Shown piece by piece: positions 48,845 through 49,678 of a stretch of DNA of 64,000 nt. The stretch is from Chloroflexota bacterium (GTDB lineage Bacteria > Chloroflexota > Dehalococcoidia > FW602-bin16). The notes beneath the pieces were generated by a model, which worked only from the letters and a program-made list of their open reading frames with translations, did not search any database and was not told the DNA's origin. The stretch is from assembly GCA_004297765.1 (NCBI GenBank), contig SCTZ01000085.1, positions 10,240 to 74,239 of the forward strand. The letters are read 5' to 3'. A program made the translations under genes and the position numbers. Each line of letters opens with the position of its first letter. Position 1 is the stretch's first letter.

Positions 48845-49678
48845 CTATCCCGCAGCCTTTCTAACTATGGTTCTCTTCCCCTCAGAAAGAGGAGGCGGAA
48901 CAGCCTCGCCAGATAGCTTCCTCACCGCATCGAATTGAGCCGGGCACACCTCTTGACACGTTCCGCATCTGATGCATTTTTCCTGTTCAATGACGTGGAC
49001 ACAGTTCTTGGCGCTGATGATCGCCTCCACCGGGCATCTCCTCGCGCAGATCATACAGGCCTGGCACTTCCCCGGCTCGATATAGTACGATGCCACGCCA
49101 CGGAACAAGGCCTCTATTTCTTCCCGCGTGAAAAACGTGTCATATTCTTCTTCATTAGTAAGACGTGTCCTCAGCTTCTCCTTCTTCACCTGCTTGATGT
49201 AGGGCACTAACTCCCTAACTATTGTAAGCTTGGCTCTTAGTTCTTCTTTGTCTATCCCCTCACCTGTGGCAAGGGGTCCTAACTCCTTTACCTTCTTGAC
49301 AAACGCATTCGTCACTTCGGCAAAGCGGATCCCTTCGCCGGCAGACATGAACTCGATGCTTAACCTTTCCGGGTTAAGCCCTACGTGCTCCATGATTCTT
49401 CTGCTGAGAAGCGCCGTGTTCAGGGCATGATAGTTGCCCTGAGTGACGTAGTTGCACTCATTCAAGCGGCAACCGCCGATGAACACCCCATCCATTCCAT
49501 TGGAGAGGGCCCGGAGCACAAACTCCAGATCGACTCGACCGGAACACATGACGCGGATCAGCCTGATTTCTGTTGTCAGTTGCAGTCTGGAAACTCCAGC
49601 CAGGTCAGCAGCCCCGTATGCTCACCAGTGACACACAAAGCCTAGGATTCGCGGTTTGAATTCACGTGCTGCGCTCAT
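48845..49678 (-). CDS. bamF: MvhD-like/2x[4Fe-4S] ferredoxin fusion (BamF-like) with in-frame TGA (putative Sec) at 49624-49622
   Basis: The ORF track starts at 49549 (MCSGRVD...). Reading upstream in the same frame gives [52 protein letters not shown]. The TGA sits where the MvhD consensus CNWCSY(A/G)GAD has Cys. C-terminal CQACMICARRCP...CIRCGTCQEVCP. Confidence 0.75.
49585..49600 (-). promoter_or_regulatory. candidate bacterial SECIS hairpin for the bamF TGA
   Basis: Minus strand GCUGGA-GUU-UCCAGAC, starting about 21 nt after the UGA. The stem is short, so this is only suggestive. Confidence 0.35.

What the first reader, a model, noticed from the sequence alone, without database searches (positions are those of the whole stretch)
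49549..49678. In-frame TGA in the MvhD-like gene at the conserved CxWC cysteine: probable selenocysteine, with the ORF call truncated
Upstream of the tracked start (49549) the same frame reads [18 protein letters not shown]-type sequence, specifically [18 protein letters not shown], then TGA (49624-49622), then [31 protein letters not shown]. MvhD/VhuD proteins have C-N-W-C-S-Y-x-G-A-D at this point, and Sec replaces the second Cys in known selenoprotein versions, including BamF. A small hairpin (GCUGGA-GUU-UCCAGAC) follows about 21 nt downstream. A nonsense mutation is unlikely to fall exactly on a redox Cys.
Basis: partly seen in the sequence, partly recalled or inferred. Interest (0 to 1): 0.8.

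Follow-up and report, generated by a model that had tools for sequence, protein, structure and literature searches.

The report
Selenocysteine codon in BamF-like gene
The in-frame TGA is almost certainly a real selenocysteine codon in an MvhD/BamF-type electron-transfer protein of an anaerobic benzoate-degradation operon; the gene call was cut short, but this kind of selenoprotein is already known.

Summary
On the minus strand an ORF starts at ATG 49678, has an in-frame TGA at 49624-49622 (codon 19) and runs to TAG 48845, giving 277 residues. The Pfam MvhD/FlpD domain needs the 18 residues before the TGA.

The TGA aligns with the second Cys of C-x-W-C in six full-length Cys homologues and five solved MvhD/VhuD-type proteins. 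Among 75 related loci found in species-representative genomes, 71 carry TGA at this codon and 4 carry TGC or TGT.

The hairpin CUGGA-GUU-UCCAG (49599-49587) fits the spacing and loop rules for a bacterial SECIS. In the Sec loci its synonymous sites are almost frozen; in the Cys loci they vary.

The gene lies in a bamB-C-D-E-F cluster. Its BamB scores 1170 bits against Geobacter metallireducens BamB. G. metallireducens BamF is reported to carry Sec19, the same position.

The adjacent hdrA-like bamE has a second Sec codon (52623-52621) with its own conserved hairpin.

Two features differ from the Geobacter enzyme: this BamF-like protein ends in a 2x[4Fe-4S] ferredoxin domain, and no bamGHI is nearby. 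The Sec machinery of the source genome could not be checked.

Verdict: correct interpretation, new member of a known selenoprotein family, modest interest.

The parts
48845..49678 (-). Full bamF-like CDS: 277 residues, with Sec at codon 19, plus the TAG stop. The automatic ORF call covers only 48845-49549.
   Evidence: Searches give the translation. In one search, Pfam FlpD PF02662 scores 153 bits and covers profile positions 1-123 of 123 over residues 11-134. In one search, MvhD 5odc_D matches with E 1.6e-38.
49622..49624 (-). UGA codon 19, read as selenocysteine. It forms a C16-H-W-U19 (CxxU) motif.
   Evidence: One search gives the coordinates. One search finds TGA in 71 of 75 related loci and TGC/TGT in 4. 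Searches align it with the second Cys of CNWC.
49584..49601 (-). bSECIS-like hairpin. The core CUGGA / GUU loop / UCCAG lies at 49599-49587. It is extended by G-C and G-U pairs across a bulged A. Loop G is nucleotide +31 counted from the U of UGA.
   Evidence: Searches give the fold (-6.0 kcal/mol for the hairpin with short flanks, positions 22-43; -11.4 for UGA to +45). One search shows third-position entropy of 0-0.29 bit at codons +8 to +12, against about 1.4-1.8 at other four-fold sites. One search gives the RNAalifold consensus pairs 26-38. One search shows the Cys loci differ at 4-5 positions (synonymous in three of four).
49277..49648 (-). MvhD/FlpD domain, residues 11-134. C16, U19, C45, C70 and C75 are the conserved Cys/Sec residues around the predicted [2Fe-2S] site.
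   Evidence: In some searches, the model of Cys homologue P0050 matches MvhD 5odh_D and 8rvu_F with TM 0.87-0.91.
48929..49084 (-). C-terminal 2x[4Fe-4S] ferredoxin domain, residues about 199-250, with two CxxCxxCxxxCP motifs. It follows a helical linker.
   Evidence: One search gives the Fer4 family hits. One search shows similarity to the C-terminal ferredoxin domain of HydB/NuoF-type subunits (7t2r_B, 8a6t_B; E about 1e-11).
49714..52839 (-). bamE-like (duplicated HdrA-like) CDS of 1041 residues. It starts at GTG 52839 and is also a selenoprotein gene.
   Evidence: In one search, the HdrA2 model scores 949 bits. In one search, solved HdrA chains match with E 1e-120.
52621..52623 (-). Second Sec codon: UGA at codon 73 of bamE-like, in DCSM[U]IL (CxxU).
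   Evidence: 64 TGA against 6 TGC matches to the motif. One search aligns it with the second Cys of DCSMCIL in HdrA.
52588..52605 (-). bSECIS-like hairpin of bamE: CUGGUCG / AGGU loop / CGACCGG.
   Evidence: Searches give -9.7 to -10.8 kcal/mol. One search shows codons +6 to +10 (CTG GTC GAG GTC GGC) with zero third-position entropy and +11 (CGG) at 0.34 bit across 64 loci.
52892..54043 (-). bamD-like gene (HdrD-type; CCG domains plus 4Fe-4S).
54053..54592 (-). bamC-like ferredoxin subunit gene.
54579..56546 (-). bamB, the tungsten AOR-family catalytic subunit. The likely start is the ATG at 56546, not the listed 56696.
   Evidence: 1170 bits over residues 1-650 against G. metallireducens BamB 4z3w_A..

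Best explanation
The TGA at 49624-49622 is a selenocysteine codon in a bamF-like gene. That gene is the last gene of a bamBCDEF-type class II (tungsten, ATP-independent) benzoyl-CoA reductase operon.

Inferred mechanism: during translation, the hairpin CUGGA-GUU-UCCAG, 27 nt downstream of the UGA with G-U at the start of its loop, is bound by SelB-GTP-Sec-tRNA(Sec). This delivers Sec to the ribosome instead of a release factor. The product is a 277-residue protein made of an MvhD-type [2Fe-2S] domain carrying Sec19 in a C16-x-x-U19 motif, a helical linker, and a 2x[4Fe-4S] ferredoxin domain.

By analogy with G. metallireducens BamF (Sec19) and methanogen MvhD/VhuD-HdrA, Sec19 sits beside the [2Fe-2S] cluster. 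It is proposed to help convert one-electron input into the two-electron reduction of the bifurcating FAD of BamE, through selenol/thiol chemistry. BamE is itself a selenoprotein here (CxxU at 52623-52621).

Shown here: the reading frame, the conserved TGA, the Cys/Sec column, the conserved hairpins and the operon context. Inferred: SelB-dependent decoding and the redox role of Sec.
For: The FlpD domain spans the TGA (residues 11-134, profile positions 1-123 of 123, E 4e-45).

In one search, 114 of the top 120 database homologues are N-terminally truncated ORF calls that start after the TGA position. The six full-length ones have Cys at this column.

Of 75 loci from species-representative genomes, 71 have TGA and 4 have TGC/TGT at the same codon.

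The upstream 18 codons keep their amino acids while third positions vary (for example P-10 at H3 1.82 and G-6 at 1.51). That stretch is therefore translated in this frame.

Hairpin codons +8 to +12 are GCT GGA GTT TCC AGA in 62 of 72 Sec sequences. One sequence (L062) has a compensatory CGGGA/UCCCG change. The Cys loci differ at 4-5 positions, synonymous in three of the four.

The hairpin meets the published bSECIS rules for loop size, stem length, G in the first loop position and 16-37 nt spacing (rules from PMC13188914; geometry).

TGA is an ordinary stop for 11 of 32 Pfam-supported genes in the window, so this is not an alternative genetic code.

A second TGA with its own frozen hairpin lies in the adjacent bamE-like gene.

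BamB is orthologous to G. metallireducens BamB, and Oah/BamA scores above its NCBIfam cut-off.

From the literature: BamF Sec19, MvhD/VhuD and HdrA as CxxU selenoprotein families, BamE and MvhD as selenoproteins in Desulfococcus multivorans (PMC5109826), and an HdrA Sec197-Cys selenenylsulfide in Methanococcus maripaludis (PMC13518236).
Against: No selA, selB, selD or tRNA-Sec was found in the 64 kb window. The source genome could not be retrieved, so the presence of the Sec machinery is untested.

The hairpin is small. Its core has 5 bp. The hairpin with short flanks (positions 22-43) folds at -6.0 kcal/mol, weaker than the -7.5 kcal/mol limit of the bSECIS model. Single-sequence folding is no better than shuffles.

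Covariation support is minimal because the element hardly varies (1 compensatory pair). Part of its conservation could come from the conserved AGVSR peptide, although that does not explain the frozen synonymous sites.

No protein-level or 75Se evidence exists for this organism.
Confidence: 0.92

Rival explanations
1. The TGA is a nonsense mutation or sequencing error, and the gene is a pseudogene or is expressed only from the internal ATG at 49549.
For: The mechanical ORF call starts at 49549. Most database entries for homologues are likewise truncated.
Against: The same TGA occurs in 71 of 75 loci from different species-level genomes. The 18 upstream codons are conserved at the protein level with free third positions. 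The upstream piece carries Cys16 and the first strand of the MvhD fold. A protein starting at Met44 would lack C16 and U19 and the first 33 residues matched by the domain model. The bamE stop (49714) lies 35 nt before ATG 49678, a normal operon spacing.
Confidence: 0.02
2. The UGA is read through or recoded as a standard amino acid (Cys, Trp or Gly), either by a suppressor tRNA or an alternative genetic code, without selenium.
For: Sec machinery was not found in the window. Established knowledge holds that some organisms insert Cys or Trp at Sec-UGA when selenium is limiting.
Against: TGA ends 11 of 32 Pfam-supported genes in the window, so it is a normal stop here. Both in-frame TGAs sit on redox Cys columns (CxxU) of two families already known as selenoproteins. 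Each is followed by a hairpin with G in the first two loop positions at SECIS spacing, frozen at synonymous sites only in the TGA-bearing loci. That pattern is specific to SelB-dependent decoding.
Confidence: 0.04
3. There are two separate genes: an 18-codon leader peptide ending at TGA with a regulatory role, followed by a shorter MvhD-like gene.
For: A short ORF ending in a stop and followed by a hairpin superficially resembles a leader/attenuator arrangement.
Against: The 'leader' is homologous to the N-terminus of MvhD in solved structures, including the cluster-region Cys. The Cys-type homologues encode it contiguously with the rest of the protein. No run of U follows the hairpin, and no start codon with a ribosome-binding site follows the TGA. 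No terminator-like site is called there.
Confidence: 0.02

Closest known systems
BamF of the Geobacter metallireducens class II benzoyl-CoA reductase Bam[(BC)2DEFGHI]2
   Same: Both are MvhD-homologous [2Fe-2S] adaptors encoded directly after bamBCDE. Both carry selenocysteine at residue 19, next to the cluster (bioRxiv 10.64898/2026.04.10.717634). BamB here scores 1170 bits against G. metallireducens BamB. [quoted passage not shown]
   Different: The Geobacter BamF extension is described as a second Rossmann-fold domain plus a winged helix-turn-helix that docks BamI, and only the F1 cluster is described for it. The protein here has a helical linker plus a 2x[4Fe-4S] ferredoxin domain. No bamGHI lies in the window, and none was seen among the conserved gene clusters within about 4.5 kb downstream of bamF in related loci. 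The preprint describes a Cys59-Cys62 pair, placed here in BamE from its context. BamE in this window has CxxU. That the two motifs correspond is inferred, not aligned.
[quoted passage not shown]
   Same: The fold and domain are the same. The same CxxC/CxxU column is involved. The family is a listed selenoprotein family with a CxxU motif (PMC13188914). It partners with an HdrA-type bifurcating flavoprotein.
   Different: The archaeal proteins are about 130-140 residues with no ferredoxin domain. They use archaeal 3'-UTR SECIS elements and feed HdrABC from a hydrogenase or formate dehydrogenase. This one is bacterial, has an in-frame bSECIS directly after the UGA, and belongs to an aromatic-ring reductase.
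Sec-containing HdrA (Methanococcus maripaludis Sec197) and BamE of Desulfococcus multivorans
   Same: The neighbouring bamE-like gene has Sec at the second position of DCSMC/U. This is the position that forms a Cys-Sec bridge between FAD and an Fe-S cluster in M. maripaludis HdrA (PMC13518236). BamE is annotated as a selenoprotein in D. multivorans (PMC5109826).
   Different: This concerns the adjacent gene, not the gene in the finding. BamE is a fused double HdrA.
Bacterial SECIS consensus (bSECISearch model)
   Same: The loop is 3 nt (GUU) with G first followed by U. The upper stem has 5 bp. There are 27 nt between the UGA and the loop (rules; geometry).
   Different: The hairpin with short flanks (-6.0 kcal/mol) is weaker than the -7.5 kcal/mol limit. 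Only the whole UGA to +45 stretch passes (-11.4). The loop lies 8 nt further from the UGA than in E. coli fdhF (the fdhF figure is from my own knowledge).

Membership tests
MvhD/VhuD-type selenoprotein family (Pfam FlpD PF02662, CxxU) | Complete FlpD/MvhD domain | tested here: met
   153 bits (cut-off 22.3), profile positions 1-123 of 123 over residues 11-134; 5odc_D at E 1.6e-38; the model of a close Cys homologue matches MvhD with TM 0.87-0.91.
MvhD/VhuD-type selenoprotein family (Pfam FlpD PF02662, CxxU) | In-frame UGA at the second position of the conserved CxxC (CxxU), with Cys in homologues at that column | tested here: met
   C16-H-W-U19. Cys sits at this column in 6 full-length homologues, in 4 genomic loci and in 5 solved MvhD/VhuD-type chains. 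The CxxU motif is listed for the family in PMC13188914.
MvhD/VhuD-type selenoprotein family (Pfam FlpD PF02662, CxxU) | Remaining conserved Cys residues of the [2Fe-2S] site | tested here: met
   C45, C70 and C75 are invariant, and C16 is present in all full-length sequences. Which four residues ligate the cluster was not determined here.
Bacterial SECIS element (bSECISearch consensus) | Apical loop of 3-9 nt, upper stem of 4-16 bp | tested here: met
   Loop GUU (3 nt). Stem CUGGA/UCCAG (5 bp, 7 with the extension across the bulged A)..
Bacterial SECIS element (bSECISearch consensus) | G in one of the first two loop positions, usually followed by G or U | tested here: met
   Loop G31-U32-U33. 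GTT is kept in 67 of 70 Sec loci.
Bacterial SECIS element (bSECISearch consensus) | 16-37 nt between UGA and the apical loop | tested here: met
   27 nt, positions 4-30.
Bacterial SECIS element (bSECISearch consensus) | Minimum free energy of -7.5 kcal/mol or lower | tested here: inconclusive
   -6.0 kcal/mol for the hairpin with short flanks (positions 22-43); -11.4 for UGA to +45. The z-score against shuffles is +0.2.
Bacterial SECIS element (bSECISearch consensus) | Binding by SelB and dependence on selA/selB/selC/selD in the same genome | not testable with these tools
   No sel genes or tRNA-Sec in the window. The source genome was not retrievable.
BamF subunit of class II benzoyl-CoA reductase (G. 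metallireducens type) | Encoded after bamB-C-D-E next to a true BamB orthologue and benzoyl-CoA pathway genes | tested here: met
   BamB scores 1170 bits against 4z3w_A. Oah (TIGR03200) scores 557 bits against a cut-off of 464.
BamF subunit of class II benzoyl-CoA reductase (G. metallireducens type) | Sec19 adjacent to the [2Fe-2S] cluster | tested here: met
   UGA is codon 19. Sec19 is reported for BamF. Proximity to the cluster is inferred from homology.
BamF subunit of class II benzoyl-CoA reductase (G. metallireducens type) | C-terminal extension of a second Rossmann domain plus winged HTH that docks BamI, with only the F1 [2Fe-2S] cluster described | tested here: not met
   The extension here is a helical linker plus two Fer4 motifs. 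No HTH family was hit.
BamF subunit of class II benzoyl-CoA reductase (G. metallireducens type) | Partner bamGHI (HydBC/NuoEFG-like) genes | tested here: not met
   None among the ORFs scanned in the window. No such gene appeared among the 12 most widely shared gene clusters within about 4.5 kb downstream of bamF in related loci; those clusters were identified by reading representative sequences, without a Pfam scan. They could lie elsewhere in the genome.

The most novel reading that the evidence does not exclude
This window may represent a widespread lineage of class II benzoyl-CoA-reductase-like complexes that has gone largely unannotated: 114 of the top 120 database homologues are truncated at the UGA. 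In this lineage the complex would be BamBCDEF only. BamF's own HydB-like 2x[4Fe-4S] domain would replace the BamGHI confurcation module as the entry point for ferredoxin electrons. A paired Sec(BamF)-Sec(BamE) relay would carry electrons from the [2Fe-2S] cluster to the bifurcating FAD. In the sampled genomes the two Sec positions are either both Sec (60 loci) or both Cys (4 loci), never mixed.
Probability: 0.25. Interest if true: 0.5.

Novelty: new member of a known kind. Interest (0 to 1): 0.3.

Why it matters
For annotation, both bamF-like and bamE-like need to be called through their UGA codons. The truncated calls remove a cluster-region Cys and the Sec itself, and the same error affects most database homologues.

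For biology, the locus adds a clean, comparatively well-supported example to the known MvhD/BamF and HdrA/BamE selenoproteins. It comes with two nearly invariant in-frame SECIS hairpins that could serve as search patterns.

The role of the Cys/Sec residues between the [2Fe-2S] cluster and the bifurcating FAD is stated as unresolved in both 2026 structural papers. A BamGHI-less, ferredoxin-fused, double-Sec variant could be a simpler system for testing it. It is not a new kind of element.

Tried and rejected
1. Retrieving the source genome to look for selA/B/C/D failed. Exact look-ups of the window's BamD and of the truncated BamF found nothing. The thiolase matched only an 11.8 kb Logan contig from SRR8426588, with a different neighbour. 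The genome-contig scan gave at best 77% identity. The Sec machinery therefore remains untested.

2. The Rfam scan at gathering threshold found only tRNA-Gly and a c-di-GMP-II riboswitch, with no tRNA-Sec or SECIS family. ARAGORN found only tRNA-Gly.

3. Single-sequence folding is not significant for the bamF hairpin (z +0.2 and +0.9) and only weakly so for bamE (z -1.5). It was rejected as evidence on its own.

4. RNAalifold covariation gave only one compensatory pair, because the element is almost invariant. Synonymous-site entropy was used instead.

The Cys homologue P0050 (61% identical to residues 20-277 of the window protein) was modelled instead. Mean pLDDT was 68.5, and only the MvhD domain gave confident PDB matches.

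6. A search for a conserved gene downstream of bamF that might replace BamGHI found none. Neighbours vary (GNAT, FdhD-like, ETF, HdrD-like membrane protein), each in 15 or fewer of 61 loci.

7. An alternative genetic code was considered and rejected, because TGA terminates 11 of 32 Pfam-supported genes in the window.

8. Kung et al. 2009 (PMC2764909) and Peters et al. 2004 (PMC374395) are not held in the library. The early 75Se evidence could not be read.
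Full report
**1. What is in the sequence**

On the minus strand an ATG lies at 49678-49676, 35 nt after the TAG stop of the preceding gene (49716-49714). The frame reads [18 protein letters not shown], then TGA at 49624-49622 (codon 19). It continues as [31 protein letters not shown] and onward to TAG at 48847-48845.

The mechanical ORF list contains only the part from ATG 49549 (234 aa).

With Cys placed at codon 19 for searching, the 277-residue protein matches Pfam FlpD/MvhD (PF02662) over residues 11-134. 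That covers profile positions 1-123 of 123 (E 4.4e-45). Two 4Fe-4S ferredoxin motifs follow at residues about 199-250. The domain model therefore needs the peptide upstream of the TGA.

**2. Does the TGA sit on the Cys/Sec column?**

Yes. In the protein database search, 114 of the 120 best homologues cover only about 83-92% of the query. Those inspected begin just after the TGA (for example 'MAGVSRLQ...'), so they are the same truncated calls. The six full-length homologues (62-64% identity) read FKPRIVGFLCNWCCYGGADL, with Cys at the aligned position.

Five solved MvhD/VhuD-type proteins align across the site with C-N-W-C (5odc_D, 8rvu_F, 8rvv_F, 7bkb_F, 9sw2_D). Codon 19 aligns with the second Cys.

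A model of the Cys homologue P0050 superposes on MvhD with TM 0.87-0.91.

**3. Is it more than chance?**

A scan of one genome per species returned 80 related loci, at best 77% identity. In 75 sequences from 74 loci where the motif could be located, the aligned codon is TGA in 71 and TGC/TGT in 4.

The 18 upstream codons keep their amino acids while third positions vary freely. Examples are Pro-10 at H3 1.82 bit, Leu-7 at 1.77 and Val-4 at 1.69. This is the signature of a translated region, not an untranslated leader.

TGA is a normal stop in this organism. It terminates 11 of 32 Pfam-supported genes in the window. An alternative code is therefore excluded.

**4. The hairpin**

It can extend to 49601-49584 across a bulged A. 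The loop G is nucleotide 31 counted from the U of UGA, leaving 27 nt between the codon and the loop.

Alone it is weak. The hairpin with short flanks (positions 22-43) folds at -6.0 kcal/mol, and the UGA to +45 stretch at -11.4. Folding is no better than shuffled sequence (z +0.2).

The comparative signal is strong. In the Sec-type loci, codons +8 to +12 are GCT GGA GTT TCC AGA in 62 of 72 sequences. Third-position entropy there is 0-0.29 bit, against roughly 1.4-1.8 bit at other four-fold sites in the same gene.

The four Cys-type loci keep GVSR (AGVSR in three; L066 has Cys for Ala) but differ at 4-5 of the 15 nucleotides and use CGN for Arg. One Sec locus (L062) carries the compensatory pair CGGGA/UCCCG.

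RNAalifold recovers the helix but finds almost no covariation, because the element is nearly invariant.

Measured against the published bacterial SECIS model (PMC13188914), the element meets these criteria:
- 3-9 nt loop
- 4-16 bp stem
- G in the first two loop positions
- 16-37 nt spacing

The energy criterion (-7.5 kcal/mol or lower) is met only when the whole segment is considered.

**5. Context**

The gene is the last of a co-directional set:
- AOR-family gene, 54579-56546
- small ferredoxin, 54053-54592
- HdrD-like CCG protein, 52892-54043
- double HdrA-like flavoprotein, 49714-52839
- this gene

The AOR protein scores 1170 bits over its full length against G. metallireducens BamB (4z3w_A). 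The set is therefore bamBCDEF of a class II benzoyl-CoA reductase.

Downstream lie paaX, 6-oxocyclohex-1-ene-1-carbonyl-CoA hydratase (TIGR03200, 557 bits, above cut-off), a dienoyl-CoA-hydratase-like gene, an acyl-CoA dehydrogenase, ETF-QO, ETF beta and alpha, and a thiolase.

A promoter-like site directly after the bamF stop precedes paaX. Nothing terminator-like lies in the bamE-bamF junction.

**6. A second selenocysteine codon**

The bamE-like gene has an in-frame TGA at 52623-52621 in [11 protein letters not shown][U]ILSPK. It aligns with the second Cys of DCSMCIL in solved HdrA proteins.

The codon is TGA in 64 and TGC in 5 of the bamE genes upstream of bamF (window included); a further TGC match in L001 belongs to a second HdrA-like gene downstream. 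It is followed by the hairpin CUGGUCG-AGGU-CGACCGG (52605-52588; -9.7 to -10.8 kcal/mol). Codons +6 to +10 (CTG GTC GAG GTC GGC) have zero third-position entropy and +11 (CGG) 0.34 bit.

In loci where both genes could be scored, 60 are Sec/Sec and 4 are Cys/Cys, with none mixed. The Cys-type loci look like one diverged clade (about 62% identity; WCC and MCIESPKF signatures). The pattern may therefore reflect a single evolutionary event.

Mixed states appear to exist outside this clade. In G. metallireducens, BamF has Sec19, while the preprint describes a Cys59-Cys62 pair that I place in BamE from its context. D. multivorans lists BamE, but not BamF, among its five selenoproteins.

**7. Comparison with what is known**

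MvhD/VhuD (PF02662) and HdrA are established selenoprotein families with CxxU motifs (PMC13188914; PMC9312934).

[quoted passage not shown] The M. maripaludis super-assembly paper sees a Cys-Sec197 bridge in HdrA between an Fe-S cluster and FAD.

What this window adds is a new member.

**8. How this one differs**

The preprint describes Geobacter BamF as an MvhD domain plus a second Rossmann domain and a winged HTH that docks BamI, and mentions only the F1 [2Fe-2S] cluster for it.

The protein here instead has a helical linker (model helices about 144-194, moderate confidence) and a 2x[4Fe-4S] domain. Its best solved relatives are the C-terminal ferredoxin domains of HydB/NuoF-type subunits of bifurcating hydrogenases.

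No bamGHI-like gene is in the window. No conserved partner follows bamF in 61 related loci with at least 2 kb of downstream sequence.

A reasonable inference follows, not shown here. In this lineage reduced ferredoxin may donate directly to BamF's own ferredoxin domain. Electrons would then pass through the [2Fe-2S]/Sec19 site to the bifurcating FAD of BamE. From there one branch would go to BamBC and benzoyl-CoA, and the other through BamD to ETF and ETF-QO, which are encoded in the same cluster.

Because two Geobacter-type BamF features are not met, I file the protein as a member of the MvhD/VhuD selenoprotein family that works like BamF. I do not call it a strict BamF orthologue.

**9. What remains untested**

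The Sec machinery of the source genome is untested. The window has only tRNA-Gly and no sel genes, and the genome could not be retrieved. There is no protein or 75Se evidence for this organism.

Two independent UGA codons on known Sec columns are each followed by a conserved SECIS-like hairpin in about 60-70 genomes. Given that, I put the probability of genuine Sec decoding at about 0.92.

**10. Verdict**

This is a new member of a known kind. Interest is modest (0.3). It has value mainly as an annotation correction, which also applies to most database homologues and to the neighbouring bamE. It also points to a BamGHI-less, ferredoxin-fused, double-Sec variant of class II benzoyl-CoA reductase that may deserve biochemical attention.

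Noticed in passing
window 49714-52839 (-), TGA at 52623-52621, hairpin 52605-52588: The adjacent bamE/hdrA-like gene is also split by an in-frame TGA at the CxxC position (DCSM[U]IL) and has its own conserved SECIS-like hairpin. The ORF list shows only the part from 52512. In related loci Sec in BamE and Sec in BamF always occur together (60 Sec/Sec, 4 Cys/Cys, 0 mixed).
   Followed up: yes
protein database hits; loci L001-L080: 114 of the 120 best database homologues of the BamF-like protein are N-terminally truncated ORF calls (those inspected begin right after the UGA), so this selenoprotein family is systematically mis-annotated in public genomes and metagenomes.
   Followed up: partly
window 37791-37865 (+) and 38028-39281 (+): A tRNA-Gly(TCC) is followed directly by a phage-integrase-family ORF and then by the aromatic-catabolism cluster (about 39.9 kb onward). 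This may mark a genomic-island boundary. An identical thiolase on Logan contig SRR8426588_228355 has a 3-hydroxyacyl-CoA dehydrogenase as neighbour instead of the integrase side.
   Followed up: partly
window 56866-58437 (+): A DDE transposase (PF13701) ORF lies immediately upstream of bamB. It overlaps a long spurious antisense ORF (56749-58392).
   Followed up: partly
window 20041-20125 (+): A c-di-GMP-II (GAG variant) riboswitch match (44.5 bits, above gathering score) lies upstream of an 894-residue NHL-repeat/FlgD-Ig protein (20214-22898).
   Followed up: no
window 54579-56696 (-): The bamB ORF is listed from ATG 56696, but homology to G. metallireducens BamB starts at the Met encoded at 56546. 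The true start is probably 56546.
   Followed up: partly
window 41152-44482 (-): ETF alpha and beta plus an ETF-QO (FixC-like, with a FixX-like ferredoxin ORF downstream) are encoded in the same cluster as bamBCDEF. This fits the recent report that ETF is the high-potential acceptor of class II benzoyl-CoA reductase.
   Followed up: partly
L001 about 7248 (+), downstream of its bamF-like gene: The closest related locus (a Chloroflexi MAG, 77% identity) carries a further HdrA-like gene with Cys (DCATCIV) right after bamF. The window has paaX at that position. Gene content downstream of bamF is not conserved across relatives.
   Followed up: partly
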